Below are positions 26,698 to 42,523 of a stretch of 64,000 nt of DNA, piece by piece. Each line of letters begins with the position of its first letter. Position 1 is the stretch's first letter. This DNA is from Escherichia phage A51.2, in the sequence record ON286973; one strand, 5' to 3'. Position numbers and translations under genes: made by a program. Below the pieces are notes generated by a model. The model was not told the DNA's origin and searched no databases. It worked only from the letters and a program-made list of their open reading frames with translations.

Positions 26698-27744
26698 ATG
26701 AATTTAACACCTCGCAGCACCATGGTACACGGCATGAAAGAAAAACAGAACGGTTTCGAACCTATGAGTAATAAAATGTTTGGTATGCCGGGCGGTATCA
26801 TGGAAACATACAGCTACCCAACACCTGTTGTTGACCACGTTCTTTATATCGACGATTTGGAAGACCTGCAGGATCATATGTCTCGTCTGCAGACGATCCG
26901 TATGGCTCAGCCGGAAGAAAGCATTCGGGTGATCATCAATAGCCCTGGTGGTTGCGTGCACATTGCAATGGCTTATCTACAGGCATTCCGCGAGTCTCAG
27001 GCAAGCGTTGTTGCACATGCTGAAGGGATGTGCTGCTCTGCGGGAACAATCTTATGGCTGGGTTGTAAAGAACGCACTGTGGCTCCGGACACAGAATTTA
27101 TGTTCCACTACTATCAAGGTGGCACTTATGGTAACGGTGTGAACATGAATACTCAGGTCAGCTACTGGAAAAAACGTTTTGAACGCCTGATCGAAAAATA
27201 CTACGGTGGGGTGCTGACAGAAGATGAGATCGCATCCATCACAGCTGGTGGTGAAGTGTGGTTGGACGGAGAGGAGCTGGCAGCTCGAACTGGAGCCATC
27301 ATTCTGGATGAAGGTAACATACAGCGCATCCAGAACGGACAAAAACCTAAAAAGCTTCTGGCAAAAGGTGATGAAGGCGTGTTAGGTGAAGCAGGTCTTC
27401 CTGAGATTCACCAGTGCACCTCTTTAGATGAGCTAGTTCATGCTGTTGAATCTGCGAAAGCGGTTGGTTCGAAAGGTGATGTTCACACTGTGTTCCTAAA
27501 TCTGCAGATGGAAAGTGGTGAGACCATTAAGATTGCCTTAGGTGAGATTACCTCAGAAGATCTGCAGCGATTCTCTGTCGTTGAACTTCAAGACATTCTG
27601 TCCCAATTGAAGACAACCCTGAACGGCGGTGAAGAGGTTAAGGTAAAAGATAAGACTCGCAAGCGTCTGGTGGACAATATTATTAAAACAGCAAAAGAGC
27701 TCAATGAAAAAATCCTGGGTGCAGGAATTGTCGAAGAAGCTTAA
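26698..27744 (+). CDS. ClpP-like serine protease (putative)
   Basis: INSPGG, MCCSAGT (Ser) and HYYQGG (His) parallel the ClpP triad region; long C-terminal extension. Confidence 0.6.
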   Translation: MNLTPRSTMVHGMKEKQNGFEPMSNKMFGMPGGIMETYSYPTPVVDHVLYIDDLEDLQDHMSRLQTIRMAQPEESIRVIINSPGGCVHIAMAYLQAFRESQASVVAHAEGMCCSAGTILWLGCKERTVAPDTEFMFHYYQGGTYGNGVNMNTQVSYWKKRFERLIEKYYGGVLTEDEIASITAGGEVWLDGEELAARTGAIILDEGNIQRIQNGQKPKKLLAKGDEGVLGEAGLPEIHQCTSLDELVHAVESAKAVGSKGDVHTVFLNLQMESGETIKIALGEITSEDLQRFSVVELQDILSQLKTTLNGGEEVKVKDKTRKRLVDNIIKTAKELNEKILGAGIVEEA

Positions 27745-28646: not shown

Positions 28647-28886
28647 ATGTACAAGTCATTTTCAATCTACTCAAGACAGTCGAAACACTACACAGAGATC
28701 CTGATCACTCAGAAAAAATCTGTGGAAGGTGAGTGGGAATATCACCATAAAATGTTGCGTCCAGACTGGGTTTTTGATAGACTTATTGCTATGATCCCTC
28801 TCGGAGAAGTATACCCTCTGACAGCCCATCGCGATGCTTGGGATTTAATTGATTACATAGATTCATTTAAGGAGCCTAGATTATGA
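28647..28886 (+). CDS. Hypothetical protein
   Basis: ORF; start refined after AGAGGGGG. Confidence 0.4.
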   Translation: MYKSFSIYSRQSKHYTEILITQKKSVEGEWEYHHKMLRPDWVFDRLIAMIPLGEVYPLTAHRDAWDLIDYIDSFKEPRL

Positions 28887-29281
28887 AGATTGAGATTACT
28901 AAAGAAGGTAAGAAAGTGTCCGGCAACTATGCAACAGTAATTCGGGATTTAATGTTTGAAGCCACCAAGATCGGTACATCTAAAGTTGGTCAAACTGTTA
29001 GTGTGCAAAGTAATATCTCCACAGGAGAGAAGGTATTCATTGTGGTCAAAGGGCAGGATCCCGTGGAAGGAACAGTGGGCCGAGGTGGCTACCTGTGCAT
29101 TTCTGAAGAGCCGCGTATGTTAGTGGCTGACGCTACTATGGGTGGGAAACGTGTGTGCGAGGCGGATGAGGTAATGATTATCCAACCTGTTGATCCAGAT
29201 GACCCAGCAACTTGGGTGGTAGGAAATGAAATCTTCTCTTTAGAAGAGTTATCCTTCCCAGCACCGCGCTCTGTTCAGTAA
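28883..29281 (+). CDS. Small acidic protein, paralog family A (MKIEIT N-terminus)
   Basis: Shares N-terminal and acidic C-terminal features with other family A members. Confidence 0.45.
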   Translation: MKIEITKEGKKVSGNYATVIRDLMFEATKIGTSKVGQTVSVQSNISTGEKVFIVVKGQDPVEGTVGRGGYLCISEEPRMLVADATMGGKRVCEADEVMIIQPVDPDDPATWVVGNEIFSLEELSFPAPRSVQ

Positions 29282-29318
29282 TAATTTATCTTACCAGGGA
29301 CGGTAGGTAGGAGGTAGC

Positions 29319-29552
29319 ATGAAAGTTAAATTTCTTACAGATTTAGGGTACCCTTCCTTGGTTGACTGTGTTGGTAAAATTGTGGAAGCAAAACGGCTAT
29401 CTGCAAACGAGAATGTTGTCCTGGTTAAAGGGAAGGATTTACTAGCTGCAGGTGCAGAGTCTGGCAGGATCTCTCCTGATTATATGTATTACCTATCTTT
29501 AAGTAATCTGCCAGAGCGAGGCGGTAAAGGCCTTGAAGTTGTGGAGGAGTGA
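29319..29552 (+). CDS. Small acidic protein, paralog family A (MKVKFL ... LEVVEE)
   Basis: Family A N- and C-terminal signatures. Confidence 0.45.
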   Translation: MKVKFLTDLGYPSLVDCVGKIVEAKRLSANENVVLVKGKDLLAAGAESGRISPDYMYYLSLSNLPERGGKGLEVVEE

Positions 29553-30082
29553 CAGGTATGCTTCTGATTAACTGGGAAGACCTCTATGGGGACAAAGACC
29601 CTGTTGCGTTTGTTGATCGTAGGTGGAGATACACTGAAGAACAACTGGCGGCAAAAAATTTAACTGCAAAACGCAGAAAGATCATCCAGTGCAAGTACAA
29701 ATACGCACAGTTTGCTGCAAAAGTGTCTCCACAAATCGAGAGCTTTGTGCTTAAATTGTATGACGAGTACCTCAAATTCAAATTGGATTTTGTGCAGGTG
29801 TACCGTGCACAGGTACGACCAGATACCAACATATGTAGATGGAAGGTTGTTTGTGAAGGTAAAGATTTGCCGCTCAGCTTGACAATTGAGTGGCGTTATG
29901 GGTATCATGAGTGTGGTCTGTATGATATTTGGGATGTCATTGTAGATCCTGCTAAGCATCTGAACACAGAGGAGCTGGAATATATCAATAAGGTTATTCT
30001 CGATATGTTTTTCAGCTACACACATGAAAACTCTGAGAAAGAACGGGATAATTTTCTTGACACCCTCAGCGACCATTTGTAG
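29549..30082 (+). CDS. Hypothetical protein
   Basis: 177-aa ORF. Confidence 0.4.
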   Translation: MTGMLLINWEDLYGDKDPVAFVDRRWRYTEEQLAAKNLTAKRRKIIQCKYKYAQFAAKVSPQIESFVLKLYDEYLKFKLDFVQVYRAQVRPDTNICRWKVVCEGKDLPLSLTIEWRYGYHECGLYDIWDVIVDPAKHLNTEELEYINKVILDMFFSYTHENSEKERDNFLDTLSDHL

Positions 30083-30112
30083 TATACAATTTAACCTACA
30101 AAGGGAGGACCA

Positions 30113-30340
30113 ATGAGTATAAATGTTGTGCTAATAGGTTACCTGGTAATGTCCGTTATAACAGCGGTATTCTTGACAGGTGTATGCATCGTGTCCAGAC
30201 GAAGGGTGAAGTTTGATGATTTTATCACCATCATCACTGCTGCACCTTTTTGGCCTGTTGTTATCTTCATCGTAATAATGTGCCTAGTTGATTACTACAA
30301 GAATATCAGGAAGGAGAGTAGGGATGGAGACTGCACCTAA
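30113..30340 (+). CDS. Small membrane protein
   Basis: Two hydrophobic segments. Confidence 0.4.
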   Translation: MSINVVLIGYLVMSVITAVFLTGVCIVSRRRVKFDDFITIITAAPFWPVVIFIVIMCLVDYYKNIRKESRDGDCT

Positions 30341-30476
30341 AACTATCTATACTGTTCTTAAAGAGATTGCGTTCTACGCAGATCTTAGCCAGGCACCTTT
30401 ATGGGAAAAGAGCATGTATTTAAAATGGTGCGTTAATTTAGGGAGACCTTCCAGTGTTTCAAGCCATGTTTATTGA
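30324..30476 (+). CDS. Hypothetical small protein
   Basis: ORF; start refined after GGAAGGAGAG. Confidence 0.3.
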   Translation: METAPKTIYTVLKEIAFYADLSQAPLWEKSMYLKWCVNLGRPSSVSSHVY

Positions 30477-30576
30477 GATGCTATCTGGGATATTGTTACT
30501 GGTAGCCATCTTAGGTGGTGCAGTTCTGATGTATAACTATCTTGAAAAAGGAGACAGCAATGGTAAAAAATAAATC
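30469..30576 (+). CDS. Small membrane peptide, 35 aa (MFIEMLSGILLLVAILGGAVLMY...)
   Basis: Micro-ORF with one transmembrane segment; below track cutoff. Confidence 0.3.
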
Positions 30577-30745
30577 TTTAGAGCAGGCTGAAAACCTTCT
30601 CCACGAGCTGGTAAAGGAGTGGAAAGTTGAATACTCAGATTTTAATGCACGAGAGGGTGAAGAATATTGGCCTACGGAGCGCTCAGAGGGCGAATGGTAT
30701 CAAGATTTTATAGAGTGGTTATATCAGACGTGCGATGAGGGGTGA
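30560..30745 (+). CDS. Hypothetical protein
   Basis: ORF; start refined after AAGGAGACA. Confidence 0.4.
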   Translation: MVKNKSLEQAENLLHELVKEWKVEYSDFNAREGEEYWPTERSEGEWYQDFIEWLYQTCDEG

Positions 30746-31212
30746 CGATGTTTGTTAAATATGTAAAAACGTGCCTCAACAGTCTTGGCAGAGAGCATTG
30801 GTACACCTTGCTTGAAAAAGGGGAAATTTTAACAAAATCTGGAAAGATAACTTTGATACCTCTTGATAGTAAAGGTAAAGACCCGTCACGACTTGTTATA
30901 GATGATTACGTTACAGGTGTGACGTTCGAGGTCTCTGTGGAGAGGTTAATACGCAGAGCTGGCGGCCCTTATGACCGAAGAGAGTATGTTTTCGATTCCG
31001 TTACAGAGATGGGGGAGCATCCGTCTTTAATGTTCAGGATGGTAATCAGAGATATGAGGTCATCTATAGATAGGATCGTAAAGGACATTAAGGAACCTTT
31101 TAGAGTAAAAGTTAAGAAGTTTTTCGATTCTAAGATTAACATACTCGCCGTTGCACTAGGTGTAGTTCAACTTCTGTTAATTTTGCACTATTTTGAACTA
31201 CTATTTAAGTAG
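30742..31212 (+). CDS. Hypothetical protein with C-terminal hydrophobic segment
   Basis: ORF. Confidence 0.4.
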   Translation: MTMFVKYVKTCLNSLGREHWYTLLEKGEILTKSGKITLIPLDSKGKDPSRLVIDDYVTGVTFEVSVERLIRRAGGPYDRREYVFDSVTEMGEHPSLMFRMVIRDMRSSIDRIVKDIKEPFRVKVKKFFDSKINILAVALGVVQLLLILHYFELLFK

Positions 31213-31274
31213 TAGTTGAGATATGGCACAAAGGATGTGCCATAGTGAAATAAACTAAGAAAGAGGTAGAGAGA

Positions 31275-31622
31275 ATGCCAAAGATTAAAACGTTATTACT
31301 GTGGGTAGCTGTTTTAGCTTTTATAGGGTACTGGACTTGGGAAACTGAATTAAAAGATATCGGATATACCAGTCTTGAGAGCAAGGCGTGCATTGGCATA
31401 ACCGATGCGTTCAGGCAAAATGCTATGGATCACGAATGTGTTGATGCAGATATAGATGAGAAACTGTCTAAGGACAAAGATTTTTACCATGGGCATGCTT
31501 TACTTGATAGTGGTGACACTGTAGAGTTCTGGTCGTGGTTTCGTGAAGATGGAACAATAAAAACAGCAGTAAAGATCTCTAACAAAGAGTTAATGCTGTT
31601 GCAGCAAAAGGAGGCTCAATGA
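31275..31622 (+). CDS. Hypothetical protein with N-terminal transmembrane anchor
   Basis: ORF; LLLWVAVLAFIGYWTW. Confidence 0.4.
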   Translation: MPKIKTLLLWVAVLAFIGYWTWETELKDIGYTSLESKACIGITDAFRQNAMDHECVDADIDEKLSKDKDFYHGHALLDSGDTVEFWSWFREDGTIKTAVKISNKELMLLQQKEAQ

Positions 31623-31906
31623 TCTGGATATCCTATGCTGATGGCACCATGCTGTATACTGCAGGTACCAGATATGAAGTTCAGGAGAACGATAAAAAAT
31701 TTATCGTAAAAACATTTGACAAGGACGACAACCTTTTGCTAGAATTGACTTACAAAGTTGGAGAGGTATCCAATATCCAGTTGGATTGTGGTCATAAAGA
31801 TAATCCACTCAAAAAACCTGGAGTAGGTAAGGCTTCAGAAGAACGTCTGTCTCGTATTGCAGAAAGCGTTTCTCCCCAAAAATCTAAGAAGAGGACTAGA
31901 AAATGA
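31619..31906 (+). CDS. Hypothetical protein
   Basis: ORF. Confidence 0.4.
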   Translation: MIWISYADGTMLYTAGTRYEVQENDKKFIVKTFDKDDNLLLELTYKVGEVSNIQLDCGHKDNPLKKPGVGKASEERLSRIAESVSPQKSKKRTRK

Positions 31907-32097
31907 AAAACTTACGTTTTAACACTTATTACTACAACACATTGAATGATTTGTATTATATTGTTCGAAGTAAAAGTCCTGAAACAGTCCTATTCTGCCG
32001 CGAACCTTTCAAAGGGGAGGAAGTAGAGTCTGAGATGAATGTTAGCCAGATCACCTCTTTGTTGCTCTCAGGCGCAATGGAAGAAGCAATATTCTAA
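31903..32097 (+). CDS. Hypothetical protein
   Basis: ORF. Confidence 0.35.
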   Translation: MKNLRFNTYYYNTLNDLYYIVRSKSPETVLFCREPFKGEEVESEMNVSQITSLLLSGAMEEAIF

Positions 32098-32115
32098 ACC
32101 AGGCAGGAGGGTTTT

Positions 32116-32301
32116 ATGAAGCACTATTGCCTGTCTGGTAGAATGGGTGCAGATTGTGATTGGGTTTTCTTAAAACTTGTCAGCATTCGAGAGTTCATCC
32201 CAGAGGAAGAGCAAGAAAGCGAGCTGATGTCATGGATCAACCATTACGGTAACACTTTTCGGCATGTTAAGGTAGAAGAGTTGCCAAGCGAGGCTGATTG
32301 A
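32116..32301 (+). CDS. Hypothetical protein
   Basis: ORF. Confidence 0.35.
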   Translation: MKHYCLSGRMGADCDWVFLKLVSIREFIPEEEQESELMSWINHYGNTFRHVKVEELPSEAD

Positions 32302-32303
32302 CT

Positions 32304-32393
32304 ATGATTGCATCAATATTAACGTTTATGGGTGGCGTGGCATTCGGATTCATTGTTTGCCTGTTTATAGTGATTATGTCTATGCGAGGCTGA
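32304..32393 (+). CDS. Small membrane peptide, 29 aa (MIASILTFMGGVAFGFIVCLFIVIMSMRG)
   Basis: Micro-ORF, single transmembrane segment. Confidence 0.3.
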   Translation: MIASILTFMGGVAFGFIVCLFIVIMSMRG

Positions 32394-32396
32394 ATT

Positions 32397-32693
32397 ATGA
32401 AACTTTTTGAGTGGTTTAAAAAGTTTAAATATAAAGCTGTAGCCATCGTGCCGTGGTCCATTCAGTGGGTTGATGAAGGTGGTCTACCGATACCTGGTGA
32501 CAAAGATACTGGGTACTGGATTATGATGGAGAACGGGTTTGGAAAGCGAAAGTATACGTGCACAAACTCTACTCGATCTGCACTTAATAGAGTGCCTGGT
32601 TACAAACTTATGGTTGTGTGGAAAATGTCAGGCGTGCCTCCAGCCAATGCTCAATTTCTTACTGACAATCCGACCACGGTAGAGGGAGATTGA
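32397..32693 (+). CDS. Hypothetical protein
   Basis: ORF. Confidence 0.4.
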   Translation: MKLFEWFKKFKYKAVAIVPWSIQWVDEGGLPIPGDKDTGYWIMMENGFGKRKYTCTNSTRSALNRVPGYKLMVVWKMSGVPPANAQFLTDNPTTVEGD

Positions 32694-32977
32694 TAATGAA
32701 AAAGATTAACAGTAGTGAAGTAGAGTTTAAACTTGTCGGAAAAGGCACTTACTGGGAAGTTCGTCAAAAGGTATATTTGTTCGGTCTTATTCCCTACTGG
32801 TCTAAATTCTACTGGGGAGCTAACGAGTTGGGAAGATACGCCACCAAATCAATGGCACTTATTGGTATAGCAGAGTACATTGCAGCCCGAGACAGGGTTG
32901 GAACCACTTATTACTACACTGCTGACGATATTCGTAACAGTGTTTACGTCCCACAACCACCTGATGGAGACCGTTGA
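32690..32977 (+). CDS. Hypothetical protein
   Basis: ORF. Confidence 0.4.
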   Translation: MIMKKINSSEVEFKLVGKGTYWEVRQKVYLFGLIPYWSKFYWGANELGRYATKSMALIGIAEYIAARDRVGTTYYYTADDIRNSVYVPQPPDGDR

Positions 32978-33201
32978 TGAAAGTTAAAGTTTTAGATTCA
33001 AGCTTCTATATTGGTCAGGAGCCTTTAGTAGGAAAAGTGTTTACTGCTGTCCCTAACGAAGATTACCCTGACCTTTTAAAAATAAAAGGAGCAGATCTTA
33101 TTGCCGCTGGTGCATCTCAGGAATGCTTTGACAGTCAGTGGACCTATAACTTTGCCCTAGGTGAGGATGTAGAGGTAGTGGAGGACGATCATGAAGGTTA
33201 A
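32974..33201 (+). CDS. Small acidic protein, paralog family A (MMKVKVLDSSFYIGQ ... VEVVEDD)
   Basis: Clear paralog of 33191..33445. Confidence 0.5.
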   Translation: MMKVKVLDSSFYIGQEPLVGKVFTAVPNEDYPDLLKIKGADLIAAGASQECFDSQWTYNFALGEDVEVVEDDHEG

Positions 33202-33445
33202 AATTCTTGATTCTAACGTCTACTTGGGACAATCCTTCCTGAATGGAAAGGTCGTTCCTGCGGTATACTTTGAAGGGTTGCCGTGGGATGATCCTGTGCG
33301 GCAACATCACAGTTATGTAGGCCACAACGTGGTGTTTATCTTGGGATCAGACCTGATCACCGCTGGTGCACCTGAATATTATTTCGGGGAAGAGTCCTAC
33401 TATGCCTTTGGGGTAGGGTCAGATGCAGATATTGTAGAGCTGTGA
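33191..33445 (+). CDS. Small acidic protein, paralog family A (MKVKILDSNVYLGQ ... DIVEL)
   Basis: Clear paralog of 32974..33201. Confidence 0.5.
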   Translation: MKVKILDSNVYLGQSFLNGKVVPAVYFEGLPWDDPVRQHHSYVGHNVVFILGSDLITAGAPEYYFGEESYYAFGVGSDADIVEL

Positions 33446-33457
33446 TGGGTAACCGTT

Positions 33458-33856
33458 GTGAAAAATAAACTGTTTAAAGTTACAATGAAAATTCGCGGGG
33501 CTTGGAGCGTAAAGCAAGGGCGTATTCCAGAATTTGAGAAAGACTTCTACGTAGTCTCCACCTCGGAGGAGGCTGCATGCTGGCAGGCTGGCTATGCCTA
33601 TGCAAGAACCTGGTACGAAGGATACCAGACTGGGGGCTATGACGGAGAAATTATCAGCAAGGGTGTAGAAGAAATTAATGTGTTGACAAGTGAAAAAGTT
33701 TTTGTTATAGTGCATCCAGATTCCAGAGTGAAGCATTACTGGAATGCCAGAACAAAAACTTGGACACCGTTTGCAGATTCTGCTACGCCACTTTTAAACC
33801 AGAAAGCTCTTGACTCTGCCCCAAGTTATGGGGTTGTTGAAGAAAAGCTAAACTGA
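33458..33856 (+). CDS. Hypothetical protein, paralog family B (HPDS ... HYWN ... WTP)
   Basis: Paralog of 35668..36063. Confidence 0.45.
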   Translation: MKNKLFKVTMKIRGAWSVKQGRIPEFEKDFYVVSTSEEAACWQAGYAYARTWYEGYQTGGYDGEIISKGVEEINVLTSEKVFVIVHPDSRVKHYWNARTKTWTPFADSATPLLNQKALDSAPSYGVVEEKLN

Positions 33857-33873
33857 AACAGTGAGGTGTCACC

Positions 33874-34164
33874 ATGATGGATTTAATTCTAAATATTGAT
33901 AACGCAGGAGAGTTTAAAGACGATGGTGTAACAAGCATGGACAAACCCTGCTCTGCTAAGGTTGACTCAAAATGGACCTACAAGTTTGACGGAGAGATCT
34001 TCGCAAATGATGAGAAGGTTGTAGATGCTGCAGCCATTTTAAACGCTCTAGGGTACGACCCTGTGAATTCTTTGATCAAGGATCCTGTTGAGTTTGCAGA
34101 GTATGTTCGAAAAATGGCAGATCTTGCTGTGGATATTTTAAAAACTATCGACAACAAGCTGTAA
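33874..34164 (+). CDS. Hypothetical protein
   Basis: ORF. Confidence 0.4.
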   Translation: MMDLILNIDNAGEFKDDGVTSMDKPCSAKVDSKWTYKFDGEIFANDEKVVDAAAILNALGYDPVNSLIKDPVEFAEYVRKMADLAVDILKTIDNKL

Positions 34165-34170
34165 AAACTG

Positions 34171-34199
34171 TTGACACAACGCTTCAGATTTAGTATCAT
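34171..34199 (+). promoter_or_regulatory. Sigma70-like promoter, TTGACA-17bp-TATCAT, upstream of the HPF-like gene
   Basis: Read directly. Confidence 0.55.
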
Positions 34200-34248
34200 T
34201 GTTTTCAAAGAGAGATAGTTATTCCCTCTTCCTTAAAAGGAACACGTT

Positions 34249-34569
34249 ATGCAAATTGAAATCACTGGCAACAATGTAGAAATCACAGAAGGTATGGTAT
34301 CTTTTATTTCCCGCAAAATGTCCAAGCTGGAGCGTTTACATCCCTCTGTTAACTATGCACGTGTGAGTGTAAAAGTTGAAAATGATCACCAGGAAGTTAT
34401 GGCGTTCATTTTTGACAATTCTGGAAAAGAAGTTATTGCCAAGGCTAAAGGCAGTGATGCTTACGAGGCAACTGACCGTATGGTAGATGTTGCAGCACGT
34501 CAGCTGGCTAAATGCGGTGGAAAGAAAGGTAAGGGGAAAGGCAAAGTAAAGATTGACTTTGGAGAATGA
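34249..34569 (+). CDS. hpf: Ribosome hibernation promoting factor / RaiA (YfiA) family protein
   Basis: N-terminus MQIEITGNNVEITEGMVSFISRKMSKLE is near-identical in pattern to E. coli HPF MQLNITGNNVEITEALREFVTAKFAKLE; basic Lys/Gly-rich tail. Confidence 0.85.
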   Translation: MQIEITGNNVEITEGMVSFISRKMSKLERLHPSVNYARVSVKVENDHQEVMAFIFDNSGKEVIAKAKGSDAYEATDRMVDVAARQLAKCGGKKGKGKGKVKIDFGE

Positions 34570-34706
34570 GGTGCTACAATGGGTGTGATTAAGAAATTAG
34601 TCCCAAATGTAGAGATTGCATGCTTTGAAATTATGTTTGCAATCGCAGTTGTAGTTAATGTGTTAGGTTACGGCTATTAATATCAAATAATTGAGGAGAC
34701 CTCTAA

Positions 34707-34976
34707 ATGAAAATTAAATTATTCCAAACTGAGCTGGCAGACAAAAATTGTGGACTGGTTGAAGGCATGATTGTTGAAGCACAACCAGTGGACTATATGA
34801 AGGTGGTTCGTGATGCCCTAGGTGAAGGTTTTGATCTGATGGAGCCAGCTCTGCGAGAAGATGTTATCGAGATGGCTAAAAAGCACACACCTGAAGGTTT
34901 GGTGGTGTTTGTTGCACCGGGTAACGGAGAAGAGTTGATTGTAACTCCTGATGTGTATGAGATTGTAGAGGAATAA
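34707..34976 (+). CDS. Small acidic protein, paralog family A (MKIKLF ... EIVEE)
   Basis: Family A signatures. Confidence 0.45.
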   Translation: MKIKLFQTELADKNCGLVEGMIVEAQPVDYMKVVRDALGEGFDLMEPALREDVIEMAKKHTPEGLVVFVAPGNGEELIVTPDVYEIVEE

Positions 34977-35067
34977 TCCTGCTTGGATTAGCATACTTCC
35001 TCGCTAAGGAAGATTTGTAATTATTTGTGGGAAAGGAGTCCCAATCTCTTACCAGAGGTGATACTAT

Positions 35068-35331
35068 ATGATTGTTTATTTTAAAACTTCAGGTGGATAC
35101 CCTGATTCTCAAAGCTTGATCGGAAAAACGTGCACAGCATACTCACCTCTTGATGAGGAGGTAAGCGATATTTTACGAAATATGTATCGGATTGACCCCC
35201 AAGAAGCCTTTGATCAAAACCTTGTATTTGTCAAGGGCTCAGATATGAAGTCTTTGGGAGCATTCCCTGAAGCAGATGATGATGCCGTTTATTCGTTCAT
35301 GACTCCTTTTGAAGCTATGGTTGTTGGGTGA
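35068..35331 (+). CDS. Small acidic protein, paralog family A-like
   Basis: Similar size and composition; ends AMVVG. Confidence 0.4.
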   Translation: MIVYFKTSGGYPDSQSLIGKTCTAYSPLDEEVSDILRNMYRIDPQEAFDQNLVFVKGSDMKSLGAFPEADDDAVYSFMTPFEAMVVG

Positions 35332-35335
35332 TAAT

Positions 35336-35668
35336 ATGAAAGTACGCTTTATTGGTGAAACAATTCCTGTGCATCTCCGGTCGCCTGAGGATTCTGCAGA
35401 TCTTGCATCTCAAAAGGCGAGAGGTTATGATAAGAAAGTAACCTCAACCGATGTAGTGCTTGAGGCTACTAGTCTACCTGACCCTGCTGCATTCTTTAAT
35501 CATTATGGGTACTATTTCAGCAATCTGATGAATATCGGTGAGCTTGTGTTTATTAGTGGTGGAGAAATTGTTAGCAAGCTTGGCGGCGATCCGGATGTCT
35601 TTCATGAAACCTGTCCTTTTGCATTTGTGGTGGGTTCAGATGTGGAAGTTATTGAGGAGGTGCGGTAA
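35336..35668 (+). CDS. Small acidic protein, paralog family A (MKVRFIG ... VEVIEEVR)
   Basis: Family A signatures; start refined to internal ATG 35336. Confidence 0.4.
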   Translation: MKVRFIGETIPVHLRSPEDSADLASQKARGYDKKVTSTDVVLEATSLPDPAAFFNHYGYYFSNLMNIGELVFISGGEIVSKLGGDPDVFHETCPFAFVVGSDVEVIEEVR

Positions 35669-36063
35669 TGGTAAGCCTATACCGTGTTGAGTATAGCTCA
35701 GATACTGTATACAACGTAAGAAGCAAAGATCGCAGCGACAGAGTGCAAGAAATGTATGTTCTTGCCGACAGTCCGTTATCTGCAGCGTTCAAGGCAGGGG
35801 CTCTTGCATCTCGTTGGAAATTTGAAGGCGGATCTTTCTATGAAGAAACCCTTGAAGATTCTGTTGTTATTTCTTCTGTAGAGGTTTCAGATGACTACGA
35901 AGGGAAAAAGTTCGTAATGCGGCACCCACACAGCAACATTGCGTACTACTGGGATGTTCTGAACAACGAGTGGACCCCAGATCTTCAGAAGGCTACTGTG
36001 CTAACACCGTTTTTGGCAGATAAGTTCCCACCAGAAGGTAATTTATCCGCACTGTTTCAGTAA
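35668..36063 (+). CDS. Hypothetical protein, paralog family B (HPHS ... YYWD ... WTP)
   Basis: Paralog of 33458..33856. Confidence 0.45.
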   Translation: MVSLYRVEYSSDTVYNVRSKDRSDRVQEMYVLADSPLSAAFKAGALASRWKFEGGSFYEETLEDSVVISSVEVSDDYEGKKFVMRHPHSNIAYYWDVLNNEWTPDLQKATVLTPFLADKFPPEGNLSALFQ

Positions 36064-36072
36064 TTTTCTTGC

Positions 36073-36110
36073 ACACAGGTGTTGACAACACCAACCCTGT
36101 GTGAAATAAT
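36073..36110 (+). promoter_or_regulatory. Promoter-like TTGACA-17bp-AATAAT with its -35 box inside an inverted repeat CACACAGG / CCTGTGTG
   Basis: Read directly. Confidence 0.45.
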
Positions 36111-36139
36111 ACCTTCATCTTAACAAGACGGGAGACTGA

Positions 36140-36400
36140 TTGATGAAGATTAAACTGAAAAACCTTGAAATGGCAGAGATTCAGGATGGTGTTGATTTCC
36201 GCTCTAAAGATGGTGACATCTTGGAGGTAAATCTTCCAACCTACGAGCTGATTAAAGGTTTTGGCAACGTTCAGGAAGAGGATATTCCAGAAACTCTTAT
36301 GATGTTGATTCTTGACGGAACTGTGTTTGTAGGTGAAGGTGAGAACGCTATTGCAATCCCCGGCCATTTTTATGAAGTAGTTGACGAAGAGGTGCTGTAA
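36140..36400 (+). CDS. Small acidic protein, paralog family A (MMKIKLKNL ... VVDEEVL)
   Basis: Family A signatures. Confidence 0.45.
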   Translation: MMKIKLKNLEMAEIQDGVDFRSKDGDILEVNLPTYELIKGFGNVQEEDIPETLMMLILDGTVFVGEGENAIAIPGHFYEVVDEEVL

Positions 36401-36751
36401 ATGAAAGTAGAAATTACTGGTTTTGATGTTAGTGTGGTTCCGGAAGATATTTTAGCTAACTTACCGGAAGGTTTTGGTAACGGTGTTGTGGTGGATGCTG
36501 TTCCTCCTACCAAAGACATTCTGCTGCAGTATGGTGTAGCAGAGGAAGATGTCGATAAAGTTCTTACAATGATGGCAATCGATCGTGTTGTCGTTGTTAA
36601 AGGTCTCGATAATTTTGAGAGTGATCCTCTGATTATTCGCGGAGATGACTACAAAATCATCGATAATGAAGGCCAAGAGTTCTATGAGCCTTGTGCAGAA
36701 GATATTCTTAACTTATTACTGGAAGCAGGCACCGAAGAGGAGGACGAATAA
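36401..36751 (+). CDS. Small acidic protein, paralog family A (MKVEITGF ... acidic tail)
   Basis: Family A signatures. Confidence 0.45.
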   Translation: MKVEITGFDVSVVPEDILANLPEGFGNGVVVDAVPPTKDILLQYGVAEEDVDKVLTMMAIDRVVVVKGLDNFESDPLIIRGDDYKIIDNEGQEFYEPCAEDILNLLLEAGTEEEDE

Positions 36752-37080
36752 TGAAGATTGACCCGTTACTGAAGGCTCGTGCAGAAAAAGCGTACACCAT
36801 TAAGCTGACCAACCTGGTTCCTACTTGTCATCCAGATGTAGGTTGGCCCGAAGGTTTGGTGGAGGGAACTGTAACAGCTGCATACCTTCCTAACATCAAA
36901 TACCTTATGGAAATCTTGGAGCTGGATGAGGAAACGGCAGAAGAGTTACAGTTGGACATGAAACAAAGTGGGACTCTGGTTATTCACGGGTGGTATAATA
37001 CTAAAGATGCAGAAGACCCTCTGGTAACTTCTAATCTGGCATATGAAATCTTAGGACCTTTGAACCTGGAGGAAGACTAA
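36751..37080 (+). CDS. Small acidic protein (family A-like)
   Basis: ORF, acidic. Confidence 0.4.
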   Translation: MKIDPLLKARAEKAYTIKLTNLVPTCHPDVGWPEGLVEGTVTAAYLPNIKYLMEILELDEETAEELQLDMKQSGTLVIHGWYNTKDAEDPLVTSNLAYEILGPLNLEED

Positions 37081-37367
37081 TGAAAGATTTGGTTAAGATT
37101 AAGATTAAAGATACCAATGGAGAACTCAGCCATTTTGGAATTAAGGATGGTGACGAGCTGATCGCACACTTGCCTACTAAGGAGGTTGTAAGCAAAGCAG
37201 TTGCCGGAGAAGAAGCTGCAATGCAGGCTGCAGGTGTGGATGAAAACTATGTAGCTATGTGCATGTGCCGAGATCAGGTTGTTCTGTATAAAGCGTATCG
37301 ACCAAACGGAGCCACGGAGTGGCTTGTATTCCGACCCGAAGGATATGAAATCTTAGAGGCACTATGA
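37080..37367 (+). CDS. Small acidic protein (family A-like; MKDLVKIKIKD ... EILEAL)
   Basis: ORF. Confidence 0.4.
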   Translation: MKDLVKIKIKDTNGELSHFGIKDGDELIAHLPTKEVVSKAVAGEEAAMQAAGVDENYVAMCMCRDQVVLYKAYRPNGATEWLVFRPEGYEILEAL

Positions 37368-37456
37368 TAAATCTTGCCAAGGTTGCAACGGCACTGTTAA
37401 TTATTTGCTGGTCTGTAACCTTAACACTGTGTCTTGTATTTCAGTGAGGTGCTTGT

Positions 37457-37720
37457 ATGAACATCCTGATGTGGGTTATAGCAGTGGCGTTTGTTGCATG
37501 TTTTTGCTGCTGGGTTGCGGTGAGGATTTCTGTAGCTACCCTTCGGAAGTTGGGGTTCTCAGAATGGGATATTAATATCCTTTCTTTTCGCAATGAAACA
37601 ATCTCAGCCGCCCTGCTTTGTAAGAAATTCAAGTGGGAACCTTGTGAGGTCATGAGCTATCTAAGAACAGGCGATATCCCTGAAAGATTTAAAAAAGTTC
37701 TTGACGGCAAGGATAAATGA
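37457..37720 (+). CDS. Small membrane protein
   Basis: N-terminal transmembrane segment ILMWVIAVAFVACFCCWVAV. Confidence 0.4.
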   Translation: MNILMWVIAVAFVACFCCWVAVRISVATLRKLGFSEWDINILSFRNETISAALLCKKFKWEPCEVMSYLRTGDIPERFKKVLDGKDK

Positions 37721-37875
37721 CAGTATAGTGACTAACAAGAGGTGAGGAGTGACTGATTTTACTGAAGCTTTAATGATGGCCTTGTCTGTTTTAGCGCTAT
37801 CGGTGTGTTTTGGGGCGTTATTCACATCTCTGGTTAAAGTTTTACATACAGTATTATTACCCAAGGAGCGCAGTA

Positions 37876-38127
37876 ATGACGAAGATTGACTTGAATGCTG
37901 GTGATCATGTTGTTGTCAAATGCATTGGAGATTATCTTGGATTCACAATCGGCAATACTTACGAGGCGGTAGTGGCGAAGGTTTATCATGATAAAGTCCT
38001 CAGTCTTGTATTTGACTGCGATGATGATGGGGATGACCGATACGTCTGTGAGGTGCTGGCACGAGACGATAGTGAAGACCAGAAATTCCTGGTTATTGAA
38101 CTGAACGGTATTTTTGTAGAACGTTAA
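37876..38127 (+). CDS. Hypothetical protein
   Basis: ORF; start refined to ATG 37876 after AAGGAG. Confidence 0.4.
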   Translation: MTKIDLNAGDHVVVKCIGDYLGFTIGNTYEAVVAKVYHDKVLSLVFDCDDDGDDRYVCEVLARDDSEDQKFLVIELNGIFVER

Positions 38128-38155
38128 TTTAAAACAACATAAGGAGACTCTTACT

Positions 38156-38461
38156 ATGGCTAAATCTAAAGTTGAACTGTTCACCTCTCTTCCTTCTGAC
38201 ACTGCAGAACGTGATCGCCTTCGCAAAACAATTGAAGAACTGGTGGAACTCCAGCTTCAGATTAAAGATTTGAAAGATGCCATCAAGGATATCATTCTTG
38301 TTGAGAAGCAGGATCATCTGTATTCTCCTAAATTCATCAAATCTCTGGTGGCTACCGAGTTCGATATTCGATATGAGGCTGAAAAACGTCGAGCTAAAAT
38401 CGAAGAAGAGGTTGAGCACATGTCTGAGGCAGACATTCTGTTCAAACGCTCTGTAGAATAA
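38156..38461 (+). CDS. Hypothetical coiled-coil protein
   Basis: ORF. Confidence 0.4.
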   Translation: MAKSKVELFTSLPSDTAERDRLRKTIEELVELQLQIKDLKDAIKDIILVEKQDHLYSPKFIKSLVATEFDIRYEAEKRRAKIEEEVEHMSEADILFKRSVE

Positions 38462-38467
38462 TGACAA

Positions 38468-38495
38468 AGAGGGGGGCTTAGGCCCCTCTTTTTAC
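38468..38495 (+). terminator. Rho-independent terminator AGAGGGGGGC-TTA-GGCCCCTCT plus TTTTT
   Basis: Read directly. Confidence 0.7.
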
Positions 38496-38516
38496 TATCC
38501 ATGAAGGAGACTTGAG

Positions 38517-38849
38517 ATGGGTATACCGATCACTGTAAAAGAATTGAATGAACGTGATGCAGGTGGTCTATGGCCTGCACGAAAAATACACTGCATCCGT
38601 ATGAAAGAGAACCTTCAGCATCTTGAGCAACAGAAACGGATTGAGGTTGGTGATATTTTCGAAGTATTTTATTCTGATCGCCGTAACTGGGAAACCATTC
38701 AACCTTCCGGTTTTGTTCTTGCTAAGCTTGACACTGGAGAAGTGATTGTTCCTGGGTTGGATATTGTCTTCGAAATTATACAGGAGTGGGATCCGGACAA
38801 GATTAGATACGAAGAGCTATTCGGTGAAGGTATTATCAAACCTGTGTGA
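38517..38849 (+). CDS. Hypothetical protein
   Basis: ORF after AAGGAGA. Confidence 0.4.
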   Translation: MGIPITVKELNERDAGGLWPARKIHCIRMKENLQHLEQQKRIEVGDIFEVFYSDRRNWETIQPSGFVLAKLDTGEVIVPGLDIVFEIIQEWDPDKIRYEELFGEGIIKPV

Positions 38850-39157
38850 GGTGGATTATGTCTACAAAGGCGGCTAAATACTCCTATATGCCATCAACCT
38901 CTGCAGAGGTAGACTTTAGTTTCGATGTGTTTCCACTGTTTGAGGTGGTTCTGGCATACCCAACAATACTATCTACTCCTGAATCACTTGTGCCTGTTAA
39001 GTTGCAGAACGCTATGCATTCCATGCACTACAACAACAAATGTAGGCACAGATGGTGTCAGGACGAGGAAAAAGATTTGGATAGTTTGAGAGATTTTGAC
39101 AGTCACCTTTTGACACCTTTCAGCTACTCCAACCTTGATAAGCCCTCGTGGGTATAG
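38846..39157 (+). CDS. Hypothetical protein
   Basis: ORF. Confidence 0.4.
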   Translation: MRWIMSTKAAKYSYMPSTSAEVDFSFDVFPLFEVVLAYPTILSTPESLVPVKLQNAMHSMHYNNKCRHRWCQDEEKDLDSLRDFDSHLLTPFSYSNLDKPSWV

Positions 39158-39370
39158 CAAAATATCAAATTTAAGACACCTAGAACGCTCTGTGGCGTCC
39201 TTTTCTTTATCTGGTGCACGATTGCATACCTTGGGTAGTTAATTTCATTACAGAGCGTTTAAGAGCTCCCTACAAACAACCCCATATTTCGAGCGTAGCG
39301 AGAACGCACGTCCGTTTTGACCCAAATCACCATACGCTCGGATTTTAACCAAACCCTCGCGGCGTTTCTG

Positions 39371-39399
39371 TTGACACATTACCGATCCAGTGATAGTAT
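39371..39399 (+). promoter_or_regulatory. Sigma70-like promoter, TTGACA-17bp-TAGTAT
   Basis: Read directly. Confidence 0.45.
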
Positions 39400-39419
39400 C
39401 CACACATCGTTTGGAGAAT

Positions 39420-39521
39420 ATGGGATACACAATGAAAACATTGTCAGAGGTTTTGGTGGTGATCCTGATGATCATTACGTCCATAGTGGCTGTTGCCGGA
39501 ATACTCACGGGTGGAACATGA
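39420..39521 (+). CDS. Small membrane peptide, 33 aa (MGYTMKTLSEVLVVILMIITSIVAVAGILTGGT)
   Basis: Promoter and GGAGA RBS upstream; the long track ORFs 39317..39730 (+) and 39248..39589 (-) overlap it in other frames. Confidence 0.3.
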   Translation: MGYTMKTLSEVLVVILMIITSIVAVAGILTGGT

Positions 39522-39851
39522 TAAACACACATGCATCTGAAGAGACATCCAAAGGAGTGACTATATGTCCCTTGACTGAGCCAGTGCAAGAGGAAAACTT
39601 CGATTCTGAAGATTCTTCATCTTCGCTCCAGGTAGATCCTGAGGCTGATGACCTGACGTGGGAAGACATCGTAGATATCTGGTTCTCTATTATGCCTGAG
39701 CACGAAGAGTTCAGGGGTGGTAGACTATGAAGCACCGAGCCCACACAGGTTCCTCATGCTGAAGCATGGCCTGAAGAGGCAAACGTGCATAATTCCTGTG
39801 CATCGGAACGTATAAAACCCTGTTCACACTCTCATTTCCAGAGGAGATTTC

Positions 39852-40067
39852 ATGAAGATAGAAATATTTGGTGGAGCTGACAACACTCGTGGCCTGATTT
39901 ACCTTGAATTCGATGAATCATACCTGCCAGAGGTGTTAAATATAGACTCTGTTGCTGATGCTTTGGGAGTAAGTCCTAAAGATCTCTACTCTGGTGCTGA
40001 GATTGATGGTTGGGAGGAGACCATGAACATTGATTTCAGTGAAGTAGAGGATGAACCGCTGGACTGA
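39852..40067 (+). CDS. Small acidic protein, paralog family A (MKIEIFGG ... VEDEPLD)
   Basis: AGAGGAG RBS; family A N-terminus. Confidence 0.45.
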   Translation: MKIEIFGGADNTRGLIYLEFDESYLPEVLNIDSVADALGVSPKDLYSGAEIDGWEETMNIDFSEVEDEPLD

Positions 40068-40194
40068 CGCACAATTAGCTGCCCGGCCAAAGTGCTGGAA
40101 GCACCTATAACACATCTTTCAACTAAATTTCCCACCACCACAATCACTTACCTTCCACACATGACTGTTTGCTTGTTTAGTGAGCAGTCATGCC

Positions 40195-40222
40195 TTGACA
40201 TTCTTGCCTATCCTGATAAAAT
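40195..40222 (+). promoter_or_regulatory. Sigma70-like promoter, TTGACA-16bp-TAAAAT, inside the ORF-free region
   Basis: Read directly; preceded by inverted repeat CATGACTG ... CAGTCATG. Confidence 0.4.
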
Positions 40223-41588
40223 TAAGTTCTTCTCTTTTCTTTTACCGAGTAATTCGGGTTTTCTGTTCTCTTCGGTTTGAAGGGGTATAGAGATACACCT
40301 GAGTGAACAGGGTGAACAACCGAACCATTAGCTATGGCATTAGCATGGCGAAGCGGACGGGTGACGAAAGAGGGGCCGGAGGACACCAGTCACTGCCATA
40401 TGATATATGGGTGATAACCTGAAGAGTCTGAATAAGTGTTTAAGTACCAGTCAGAGGAAAAGGTGAATGGTAGCCGAAGGGGGGAGGGGGGTTTCTTGTA
40501 TCTTTAATTTGTATATTATGTATACACTTGTAAACCAATCTAATCTGAATCTGTTTACCACACAAAGCGGATAGAGACAAATATTGCCTATTAAACTTGA
40601 ATTATTTATAGAAAATACCACAACACCCCTTAAGTCTTTGATTTTACACACAAATCCTACAGATATTCAACCTCCATATTTAACATACTTGTAACATATT
40701 CCATACTCTACCTGCCTGATCAATTTCCCCAACTACATTCTCATATTTCCCCTGTCTGTACTACCCTGCCCCACCGGGAGTCCCGTCATATCTGGCTTTC
40801 CAGCAAATATCACACCCACAAATATCATGCCTGAAGAGGGTTTCATCCCATAATACCTGCCTTGCCTGAAGAGCGCTTCATACACCACGTAAATTTTTTA
40901 ATTGACCTCCCCTGCCCCGCCGGAGAGGTTGGCTTTTCCCACACAGACCTGGAGAGTCAGCCAGAAATATCTGAATAGGCCCAGTTCTACCACGATTTTG
41001 ACCTGACCTACAGGAGCGCTGCCAGGCGGACGAAATGGGAATACTTCTCATTCTTATAACAATTCTCAAATATCGAGGCAGTGAGGCAAATTAATAGGCC
41101 AGGCCGTTCACACAGTGGCACAACATTTGCAACCTATCTTGTGGGGTGAATGAGAATACCTATCATTGTGAGAACCATTATCATTACGGGCAATTTAACA
41201 TAATACCCATTATGCGCACCACTGGCGATCCATACAGGGATTGATAACACGAGTTACAGTTTACGCATATAACAATCATATTTCTTACTATTTGTGTGGG
41301 ATATAGTTAGCAGCCGATAGATTAGATATTGACCTGTGGACTTCCAACCGTCTAGACGTCTAAGCGCCCACACAACAAGGCTTATACATACATTACTGAA
41401 TGTAAACAGGGCCGCAAAAATGCTACCATACCAGTTTGTAAATTTTTCATGCAGCACTTGACAAAGAGGAGGAAAACTTGTCTGACACAATGTCACACAA
41501 TATGACACAATAACGGCTGTTACCATTCCATATCTCACTGTTTACGCATAGACTGTTTACGCCTGGATAGTTTACACAGATATGATAA

Positions 41589-42494: not shown

Positions 42495-42523
42495 GCAGAC
42501 AAAAAGAAAGGGGCCTAAGCCCC
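42495..42523 (-). terminator. Rho-independent terminator for the minus-strand block: GGGGC-TTAG-GCCCC followed by UUUCUUUUUG (minus-strand sense)
   Basis: Read directly, just downstream of the minus gene ending at 42544. Confidence 0.7.

What the first reader, a model, noticed from the sequence alone, without database searches (positions are those of the whole stretch)
28883..40067. Tandem arrays of paralogous small acidic proteins (at least 12 family A members and 2 family B members)
Within about 11 kb, many consecutive 70-130-aa ORFs share an N-terminal MK(V/I)(K/E)(I/F)(L/T) start and an acidic C-terminus ending in (V/I)(V/I)EE-like motifs (28883, 29319, 32974, 33191, 34707, 35068, 35336, 36140, 36401, 36751, 37080, 39852). 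A second family, 33458..33856 and 35668..36063, shares HP(D/H)S ... (H/Y)YW(N/D) ... WTP. Such diversified multi-copy acidic gene families suggest an arms-race cargo, possibly DNA mimics or host-factor inhibitors. No function can be read from sequence, so this is the main candidate for an undescribed system. Several N-termini (MKIEIT..., MKVEITG...) also echo the HPF N-terminus (MQIEITGNNVEIT), which may be coincidence.
Basis: partly seen in the sequence, partly recalled or inferred. Interest (0 to 1): 0.8.

Follow-up and report, generated by a model that had tools for sequence, protein, structure and literature searches.

The report
Expanded small beta-barrel gene family in phage
An rV5-like E. 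coli phage carries ten diverged copies of a small acidic SH3-like barrel protein plus two copies of an orphan partner protein; all are dispensable on lab E. coli, but published transposon data show one three-gene cassette is needed to infect a clinical strain, so they look like uncharacterised host-specific accessory factors.

Summary
The window is an rV5-like (Vequintavirus) E. coli phage. They form two sequence families. A1 is 29319, 32977, 33191, 35068 and 35336. A2 is 34707, 36143, 36401, 36751 and 37080. Confident AlphaFold models give both the same five-strand SH3-like barrel. ORFs 28883 and 39852 are not supported as members. Family B (33458, 35668) is confirmed and is an orphan family confined to rV5-like phages.

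The shared termini are barrel strands 1 and 5. The terminal Glu codons (GAGGAG) also serve as the ribosome-binding site of the next, translationally coupled gene.

Gene order shows an old duplication of a three-gene cassette, A1-A1-B. Orthologs are under purifying selection (pN/pS 0.08-0.19), with no arms-race signal.

No function can be read from sequence or fold. A 2025 transposon-sequencing preprint on the near-identical phage Bas54 classes seven of the ten A genes and both B genes as non-essential on K-12, and 35336, 35068 and 34707 as "Intermediate". Insertions in the second cassette (35068-36063) are lost completely in uropathogenic strain CFE311. The authors did not discuss this.

Best reading: accessory, host-specific, probably counter-defence protein binders. 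DNA mimicry is unsupported.

The parts
29319..29552 (+). A1 member (rV5 gp122, bas54_0166), 77 aa, phrog_5009; closest relative of the lambdoid-prophage homolog P0031 (46% identity)
32977..33201 (+). A1 member (rV5 gp135, bas54_0159), 74 aa, minimal barrel with no insert; first gene of cassette 1; the sequence that was modelled
33191..33445 (+). A1 member (rV5 gp136, bas54_0158), 84 aa; second gene of cassette 1; overlaps the upstream gene by 11 nt
33458..33856 (+). B member (rV5 gp137, bas54_0157), 132 aa, phrog_7379; third gene of cassette 1; transposon mutants about 4-fold depleted in CFE311
34707..34976 (+). A2 member (rV5 gp141, bas54_0153), 89 aa, phrog_11868; mis-annotated as 'sigma 54 modulation factor' in some records
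35068..35331 (+). A1 member (rV5 gp142, bas54_0152), 87 aa; first gene of cassette 2; zero transposon reads in CFE311
35336..35668 (+). A1 member (rV5 gp143, bas54_0151), 110 aa, long insert between strands 2 and 3; second gene of cassette 2; zero transposon reads in CFE311
35668..36063 (+). B member (rV5 gp144, bas54_0150), 131 aa; third gene of cassette 2; its start overlaps the upstream stop; zero transposon reads in CFE311
36143..36400 (+). A2 member (rV5 gp145, bas54_0149), 85 aa; modelled; first gene of a four-gene A2 array
36401..36751 (+). A2 member (rV5 gp146, bas54_0148), 116 aa, net charge -22, with an extra acidic C-terminal tail
36751..37080 (+). A2 member (rV5 gp147, bas54_0147), 109 aa
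37080..37367 (+). A2 member (rV5 gp148/149, split in the rV5 record; bas54_0146), 95 aa
36082..36110 (+). sigma-70-type promoter (TTGACA-17-AATAAT with extended -10) ahead of the A2 array; annotated as P150 in rV5
34553..34580 (+). sigma-70-like promoter candidate (TTGACT-16-TACAAT) upstream of 34707 and cassette 2; consensus match only

Best explanation
The region holds a lineage-specific expansion of one small protein module. Ten single-domain, acidic, SH3-like five-strand beta-barrel proteins fall into two sequence families, A1 and A2. A variable insert lies between strands 2 and 3. Two copies of an orphan 131-aa protein (B) are interleaved with them. The core unit is a three-gene, translationally coupled cassette A1-A1-B that was duplicated long ago (32977-33191-33458 and 35068-35336-35668). 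The genes are read from sigma-70-type promoters within the non-structural transcription unit. They are accessory: dispensable on E. coli K-12, but host-specifically required. I infer that the barrels act as stoichiometric protein binders, with the variable insert and surface setting the target. I also infer that the two A1 proteins and B of a cassette work together to neutralise a host factor present in some natural E. coli strains, most likely an immunity system. Shown here: family membership, fold, cassette duplication, purifying selection, dispensability, and conditional essentiality of cassette 2 in strain CFE311. Inferred: binding mode, complex formation, and that the target is a defence system.

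For: Cassette: gene order A1-A1-B occurs twice, with best reciprocal matches 33191~35336, 32977/29319~35068 and 33458~35668. Start and stop codons overlap or lie within 12 nt. The same order is kept in a lineage diverged to 29-74% identity.

Real, constrained genes: pN/pS 0.08-0.19.

Accessory status: the HIDEN-SEQ supplement classes all A and B genes of Bas54 as Non-essential, or Intermediate for 0151-0153, on K-12. Bas54 orthologs are 94-100% identical to the window. Bas59 naturally lacks cassette 1. An A1 homolog occurs singly between the Q antiterminator and the holin gene in 46 viral contigs of ~8-77 kb (mostly ~50-57 kb) and in E. coli genome and metagenome contigs.

Host-specific requirement: in K-12 versus CFE311 resampling, bas54_0150, 0151 and 0152 fall to 0 reads (log2FC -6.8, -6.2, -7.2; adjusted p 0). 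bas54_0157 falls 4-fold (adjusted p 0). Insertions in 0158 and 0159, upstream of 0157, are not depleted, which argues against strong polarity.

Neighbourhood: the validated anti-DS-28 gene bas54_0140 is the ortholog of window 38858-39157, in the same block.

Precedent: TifA is a small acidic phage protein with an SH3-like domain that inhibits type IV restriction enzymes (PMC11322646).
Confidence: 0.5

Rival explanations
1. DNA mimics: the acidic barrels imitate DNA and titrate DNA-binding host enzymes such as restriction or repair proteins, as Ocr does, or as the SH3-fold antirepressor CarS does.
For: Low pI (4.05-4.9 for nine of ten) and net charge down to -22. An acidic SH3-like phage anti-restriction protein, TifA, exists. 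From my own knowledge, untested here, CarS is an SH3-topology DNA mimic.
Against: D+E is 13-25% against a block mean of 16%, below the 29% quoted for Ocr. 29319 has a net charge of -1 and B1 of +1. No elongated DNA-like charge array could be examined. Vequintavirinae are reported as exceptionally sensitive to type II and III restriction-modification, with 'no evidence for effective mechanisms' against it. The TifA authors themselves decline to call TifA a DNA mimic.
Confidence: 0.1
2. General host-takeover factors for transcription or translation: KOW/SH3-like barrels that dock on the ribosome or RNA polymerase and act with the embedded hibernation factor HPF.
Confidence: 0.15
3. No real family: the shared termini arise from composition, from a translation-favoured MK(I/V)K start, and from Shine-Dalgarno sequences embedded in C-terminal codons.
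For: GAGGAG at gene ends doubles as the next gene's ribosome-binding site. There is a genome-wide excess of terminal Glu in tightly coupled genes. 27 of 150 ORFs start with MK. This explanation holds for 28883 and 39852, which match no profile.
Against: Full-length profile matches exist within A1 and within A2. Confident models give the same fold. 34707 and 37080 keep the YEI(V/L)E ending even though a gap of ~90 nt follows them.
Confidence: 0.03
4. Virion or assembly accessory proteins, since SH3-like barrels are common in tail and head accessory proteins.
For: A 'virion structural protein' (30742-31212, rV5 ORF133) lies in the same block.
Against: None of the A or B proteins appears in the text list of virion mass-spectrometry hits for rV5. 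All tolerate insertions on K-12. Sigma-70 promoters and the neighbouring DNA-metabolism and HPF genes fit a non-structural unit.
Confidence: 0.05

Closest known systems
TifA (Orf65 of enterococcal phage phi47), an inhibitor of type IV restriction enzymes
   Same: A small acidic phage accessory protein whose N-terminal domain resembles SH3 domains. It is dispensable except in hosts that carry the cognate defence, and is proposed to be a direct protein inhibitor (PMC11322646).
   Different: tblastn searches of the phage collection returned no enterococcal-phage hit, though I could not check whether phi47 is in that collection. TifA acts as a single gene; here there are ten paralogs plus a partner protein B in cassettes. 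The target here is unknown.
Generic SH3-like small beta-barrels (SH3, KOW/Spt5, PsaE, retroviral integrase C-terminal domain)
   Different: No Pfam SH3 or KOW match. Sequence identity is 4-26%. There is a helical insert between strands 2 and 3. The proteins stand alone rather than forming domains of larger proteins.
Ocr (T7 gp0.3) and other DNA-mimic anti-restriction proteins
   Same: Early-expressed, acidic phage accessory proteins.
   Different: Ocr is an all-helical dimer that imitates bent B-DNA. The proteins here are beta-barrels with lower acidic content. No anti-restriction phenotype is known for this phage group.
PHROG families phrog_5009 and phrog_7379 (unknown function)
   Same: phrog_5009 already groups 29319, 32977 and 33191. 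phrog_7379 groups both B copies.
   Different: The other seven A genes sit in seven separate PHROGs (13920, 13661, 11868, 12359, 12155, 12457, 12794). The ten-member fold family and the cassette structure are therefore not captured, and no PHROG carries a function.
bas54_0140, the anti-DS-28 gene of phage Bas54
   Same: Same genomic block (ortholog at window 38858-39157, 99% identical). A small protein of unknown function, non-essential on K-12 and required in CFE311.
   Different: Not homologous to A or B. It was validated by knockout against a cloned defence system, whereas cassette 2 was not followed up.

Membership tests
SH3-like small beta-barrel fold | Five antiparallel strands forming a closed or partly open barrel of about 55-65 core residues | tested here: met
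KOW motif family (NusG/Spt5/L24) | Recognisable KOW sequence motif (Pfam KOW) | tested here: not met
   No Pfam hit at E<=1 for any A protein.
Eukaryotic-type or bacterial SH3 domain families (Pfam SH3 clan) | Significant match to an SH3-clan profile | tested here: not met
   No Pfam or NCBIfam match. A profile search of PDB sequences gave nothing below E 0.1.
HPF/RaiA (Ribosomal_S30AE) | Match to PF02482 | tested here: not met
   Only 34249-34569 matches (E 4e-15). 34707, labelled 'sigma 54 modulation factor' in some records, has no match. A-family versus HPF hhalign gives P>0.03.
Ocr-like DNA mimics | Helical fold presenting a DNA-like array of carboxylates; about 29% acidic residues | tested here: not met
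   The fold is a beta-barrel. D+E is 13-25%. Surface charge geometry could not be examined because no model coordinates were available.
TifA family | Sequence homology to phi47 Orf65 | not tested
tblastn of A and B members against 50,697 phage records returned no enterococcal-phage hit.
Phage anti-defence genes (functional class) | Dispensable in a defence-free host, required in a host carrying a specific defence, with the phenotype mapped to that defence | tested here: inconclusive
   The first two criteria are met for cassette 2 from published transposon data. The third, identifying the host determinant, has not been done by anyone. There is no phenotype for the A2 array or for the A1 genes of cassette 1.
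   Ten members fall into two profiles. 28883 and 39852 match neither at E<1. A1 versus A2 at profile level gives P 0.0045 over 27 columns.
Family B (phrog_7379) | Full-length match to the profile; conserved HP.S...YW...WTP motif | tested here: met
   Both copies match phrog_7379 at E 4e-74 and 2e-66. The pairwise alignment shows the motif.

The most novel reading that the evidence does not exclude
The A1-A1-B cassette encodes a three-protein inhibitor of a still unidentified E. coli immunity mechanism present in strain CFE311. The ten-gene SH3-like expansion would then be a panel of specificity variants, each barrel aimed at a different host defence or takeover target. That would make rV5-like phages carriers of a modular, barrel-based counter-defence toolkit with no relative among known anti-defence families.
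Probability: 0.25. Interest if true: 0.75.

Novelty: new variant of a known kind. Interest (0 to 1): 0.58.

Why it matters
rV5-like phages are common therapeutic and biocontrol candidates. They adsorb to a very wide range of hosts but form plaques on few strains (BASEL paper). A block of twelve related genes of unknown function, one cassette of which is already seen to be required in a uropathogenic isolate, is a concrete handle on what limits their productive host range. The finding joins seven PHROGs of 'unknown function' and phrog_5009 into one fold family. It shows a duplicated three-gene unit that implies joint action. It also points to an unexploited result in public transposon data that can be tested with three deletions and one host library.

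Tried and rejected
1. Pfam, NCBIfam and PDB sequence searches on all members found nothing, and PHROG hits carry no function.

2. A word-indexed protein search returned essentially only orthologs, the prophage homolog P0031, and one chimeric fragment, P0088, whose DUF7399 part is unrelated.

3. HMM scans of the syntenic regions of PVP-SE1 and Mydo found no homologs. The families are specific to the genus lineage.

4. A BFVD fold search gave one convincing non-Vequintavirus relative of A2 (Vibrio phage Vc1, 86 aa, TM 0.74, 31% identity). It is uncharacterised, and I could not retrieve its context.

5. An exhaustive HMM search with B found only rV5-like homologs. The long Ig or repeat proteins it returned are spurious.

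6. The exhaustive search with A1 could not be run. The job was interrupted, and the single slot was then used for B.

8. DNA-level repeats show only one trace of paralogy (33088 versus 33344), so the duplications are old.

9. A link between 28883 and HPF (hhalign P 0.0019-0.008) is not significant after multiple testing.

10. The rV5 genome paper mentions no paralogs or duplications, and its virion mass-spectrometry text list contains no A or B proteins.

11. Rfam, tRNA and tandem-repeat scans of the block found nothing.
Full report
**Identity of the window.** The 13-kb region is 97-99% identical to more than 100 Vequintavirus (rV5-like) E. coli myophage genomes, at best 99.3% to phage slur12. 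It lies on the + strand between a ClpP-like protease and adenine methyltransferase (26.7-28.3 kb) and a non-coding strand-switch region of about 2 kb that starts near 40.1 kb. In rV5 the listed ORFs are gp121, 122, 135-137, 141-149 and the last small gene of the unit. In phage Bas54 (MaxBurger) they are bas54_0135 and 0146-0167. Protein identity to the window is 86-100%, and 94-100% for the A and B genes.

- A1 (29319, 32977, 33191, 35068, 35336) is robust. An HMM of three members finds the other two at E 1.7e-6 and 5.3e-5 and nothing else among 481 window ORFs. hhalign P values run from 1e-22 to 1e-5.
- A2 (34707, 36143, 36401, 36751, 37080) was only borderline when the alignments held close orthologs. 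I then found a diverged rV5-like lineage (L060, orthologs at 29-74% identity). Adding its sequences gave a connected chain of significant matches over nearly full length: 36143~36401 P 3.8e-6 over 83 columns, 36401~36751 1.4e-5, 34707~37080 1.4e-4, 36751~37080 2.6e-4, with 171 pairs tested.
- 28883 and 39852 match neither profile at E<1. They share only an MKIEI start, and I do not count them as members.

Family B (33458, 35668) is confirmed: E 2.6e-8, 28% identity, a conserved HP.S...YW...WTP motif, and both copies fall in phrog_7379.

**Fold.** AlphaFold2 on family alignments gave confident models.

- A1 (32977): pLDDT 91.5, strands at 2-5, 21-26, 33-37, 56-61 and 65-69, with a short helix at 38-43.
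- A2 (36143): pLDDT 90.3, strands at 2-5, 26-30, 61-63, 70-72 and 77-80, with two helices (34-40, 45-57) inserted between strands 2 and 3.

**What the shared termini are.** The MK(V/I)K(F/I)L start is strand 1, and the (V/I)(V/I)E ending is strand 5. The last acidic residues are disordered in the models. Their codons also have a second role. In 32977, 35336, 36143, 36401 and 36751 the terminal GAGGAG/GGAGGA sequence lies 5-12 nt ahead of the next start codon, and the genes overlap or abut (gaps of -11 to +4 nt). Across the window, genes followed within 12 nt by another gene carry more Glu in their last six residues than the others (0.95 versus 0.59, against 0.44 expected from composition). Part of the "acidic C-terminus" is thus a footprint of translational coupling. 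It is not only that, however: 34707 and 37080 keep the YEI(V/L)E ending even though a gap of ~90 nt follows them.

**Organisation and history.** The gene order is:

- 29319 (A1), standing alone;
- [32977 A1 - 33191 A1 - 33458 B];
- an unrelated ORF (33874) and HPF;
- 34707 (A2);
- [35068 A1 - 35336 A1 - 35668 B];
- a promoter, followed by 36143-36401-36751-37080 (A2 x4).

The best cross-matches are 33191~35336, 32977/29319~35068 and 33458~35668. This is what an old segmental duplication of a three-gene cassette predicts. Only one 30-nt trace of DNA similarity survives between the adjacent genes 32977 and 33191.

All ten A genes and the second B gene keep this order in the diverged lineage L060, where the first B gene is replaced by an unrelated ORF. 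In L060 the A proteins have diverged more (29-74% identity) than the neighbouring regulator (86%), the 32696 ortholog (82%) or HPF (64%). Within the genus, however, pN/pS is 0.08-0.19 for the A genes, against 0.12-0.20 for their neighbours. The genes are constrained and show no sign of diversifying selection.

Sigma-70-type promoters with a perfect TTGACA lie ahead of HPF (34171) and of the A2 array (36082). Both coincide with promoters annotated in rV5.

**Distribution.** A1, A2 and B are absent from the syntenic regions of PVP-SE1 and Mydo. tblastn of 50,697 phage records finds them only in Vequintavirus, apart from one weak full-length match to a Cellulophaga phage.

An exhaustive HMM search of 1.84 billion representative proteins with B found only rV5-like homologs. 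These were fragments plus two diverged full-length clusters on contigs of up to ~147 kb (mostly 118-147 kb). The long Ig or repeat proteins it also returned are spurious.

There are two exceptions to this narrow distribution.

- A 75-aa A1 homolog (46% identical to 29319) occurs once per genome in E. coli genome and metagenome contigs and in 46 viral contigs (IMG/VR) of ~8-77 kb, mostly ~50-57 kb. Where context was read, it lies between the Q antiterminator and the holin gene, a classic moron site. No A2 or B gene accompanies it.
- An 86-aa protein of Vibrio phage Vc1 matches the A2 model (TM 0.74, 31% identity).

**Function: what the evidence allows.** Sequence and fold give no function. Literature tied to this phage group adds real data. 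A 2025 preprint (bioRxiv 10.1101/2025.11.20.689424) ran transposon-insertion sequencing on Bas54. In its Extended Data Table 8, all A and B genes are "Non-essential" on K-12, except bas54_0151, 0152 and 0153, which are "Intermediate".

The comparison of K-12 BW25113 with uropathogenic isolate CFE311 gave these results:

| Bas54 gene | Window ortholog | Result in CFE311 |
|---|---|---|
| bas54_0152 | 35068 (A1) | 0 reads, log2FC -7.16, adjusted p 0 |
| bas54_0151 | 35336 (A1) | 0 reads, log2FC -6.17, adjusted p 0 |
| bas54_0150 | 35668 (B) | 0 reads, log2FC -6.77, adjusted p 0 |
| bas54_0157 | 33458 (B) | log2FC -2.14, adjusted p 0 |
| 0146-0149, 0158, 0159, 0166, 0167, 0135, HPF | A2 array, A1 genes of cassette 1, 29319, 28883, 39852, HPF | unchanged |

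Insertions in 0158 and 0159, which lie upstream of 0157 in the same tight operon, are not depleted. Strong polarity is therefore unlikely, which suggests that the two A1 genes of cassette 2 are themselves required.

Two caveats apply. The sheet labelled "CFE303" carries a console line naming the CFE311 data, and the two sheets are identical as stored. Twenty-seven genes in total are significant in that strain.

The authors followed up only bas54_0063 and bas54_0140, which act against the predicted defence system DS-28. The text never mentions 0150-0152. The ortholog of bas54_0140 is window 38858-39157, 1.5 kb downstream of the A2 array.

Natural isolates support accessory status. Bas59 lacks about 3.7 kb that includes cassette 1.

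**Mechanism proposed.** I commit to the following. The barrels are stoichiometric protein binders, and the insert between strands 2 and 3 together with the surface sets specificity. The three products of a cassette act together. Three observations support this: the same phenotype for all three genes, translational coupling, and an order kept through duplication and divergence. Cassette 2 neutralises a factor present in CFE311 but not in K-12, most likely an immunity system.

The precedent is TifA, an acidic phage protein with an SH3-like domain that inhibits type IV restriction enzymes. All steps beyond fold, organisation, dispensability and the CFE311 requirement are inference. My overall confidence is about 0.5 for "host-specific accessory or counter-defence module" and lower for the molecular details.

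**Rivals.**

- DNA mimicry is not supported. The fold is a beta-barrel and acidic content is moderate (13-25% D+E). This phage group is notably sensitive to type II and III restriction.
- A general role at the ribosome or RNA polymerase is suggested only by the neighbouring HPF gene and by KOW hits that score no better than generic SH3 domains.
- A structural role is unlikely.
- "No family at all" holds only for 28883 and 39852.

**Novelty.** The genes are "hypothetical" everywhere. PHROGs groups three A1 genes and the two B genes and scatters the other seven A genes over seven families. The rV5 genome paper mentions no paralogs. Within the searched libraries I found no description of the ten-member barrel family, the duplicated A1-A1-B cassette, or the CFE311 requirement of cassette 2. 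The category (phage accessory genes needed in particular hosts) is well known. The family, its fold-based unity and its cassette architecture are new within it.

Noticed in passing
window 38858-39157 (+): This ORF is the 99%-identical ortholog of bas54_0140. The HIDEN-SEQ preprint validated bas54_0140 by knockout as required to overcome the predicted defence system DS-28 of E. coli CFE311. It is unrelated to families A and B.
   Followed up: partly
window ~40070-42500: A non-coding strand-switch region of about 2 kb at the peak of cumulative GC skew. In Bas54 the equivalent region (between bas54_0134 and 0135) tolerated no transposon insertions, which suggests an essential cis element such as an origin. 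Rfam, tRNA and tandem-repeat scans found nothing.
   Followed up: partly
window 34707-34976 (+): Orthologs are annotated 'sigma 54 modulation factor' in APECc02, nomo, navn and other records. The protein has no S30AE domain and belongs to family A2. This is a propagated mis-annotation, probably copied from the neighbouring true HPF gene (34249-34569).
   Followed up: yes
window 37876-38127 (+): An 83-aa protein (phrog_12851). An 83-aa protein of the rV5-like phage CM1, probably its ortholog, was the second-best BFVD structural match to the A2 model (TM 0.52). It may be another small barrel outside families A1 and A2. The 38517-38849 ortholog in L060 also gave a marginal A1 HMM hit (E 0.0012).
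   Followed up: no
window 28883-29281 (+): This 132-aa ORF (phrog_5748) gave a weak, non-significant profile similarity to HPF (hhalign P 0.002-0.008). Its N-terminal beta-alpha-beta-beta pattern resembles HPF. No structure prediction slot was left to test this.
   Followed up: partly
window ~30100-33850, compared with L059 and L058: There are natural deletion variants. Bas59 (EduardKellenberger) lacks about 3.7 kb, from inside the 'glycosidase' gene to the end of 33458. Bas54 (MaxBurger) lacks about 30.5-32.4 kb, including the gene annotated as a virion structural protein (30742-31212). That gene is therefore not essential for virions.
   Followed up: partly
GenBank records MG0656xx, found: About 18 records named 'Campylobacter phage' with host Campylobacter jejuni are 97-100% identical to E. 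coli rV5-like phages over this region. The host labels look wrong, or the phages came from contaminating E. coli.
   Followed up: no
window 34579-34680 (+): A 33-codon hydrophobic ORF between HPF and 34707. It is annotated in rV5 (gp140) and Bas54 (0154), and is non-essential in Bas54.
   Followed up: no
HIDEN-SEQ preprint, Extended Data Table 8, sheets S6 and S7: The sheet titled 'resampling_K-12_vs_CFE303' carries a command line that names the CFE311 data file. Its numbers are identical to those of the CFE311 sheet as stored. The true CFE303 comparison appears to be missing.
   Followed up: yes
L060 10092-10388: In the diverged rV5-like lineage, a gene with a Phage_P22_Y8K6 domain (PF27050) is inserted between cassette 2 and the A2 array, at the position of the P150 promoter gap. 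This marks the gap as an insertion hotspot.
   Followed up: no
window 26698-27744 and 33458-33856: The ClpP-like protease ends in ...GIVEEA, and B1 ends in ...YGVVEEKLN. Both echo the family A ending. This is probably coincidence or the same embedded ribosome-binding-site effect.
   Followed up: no
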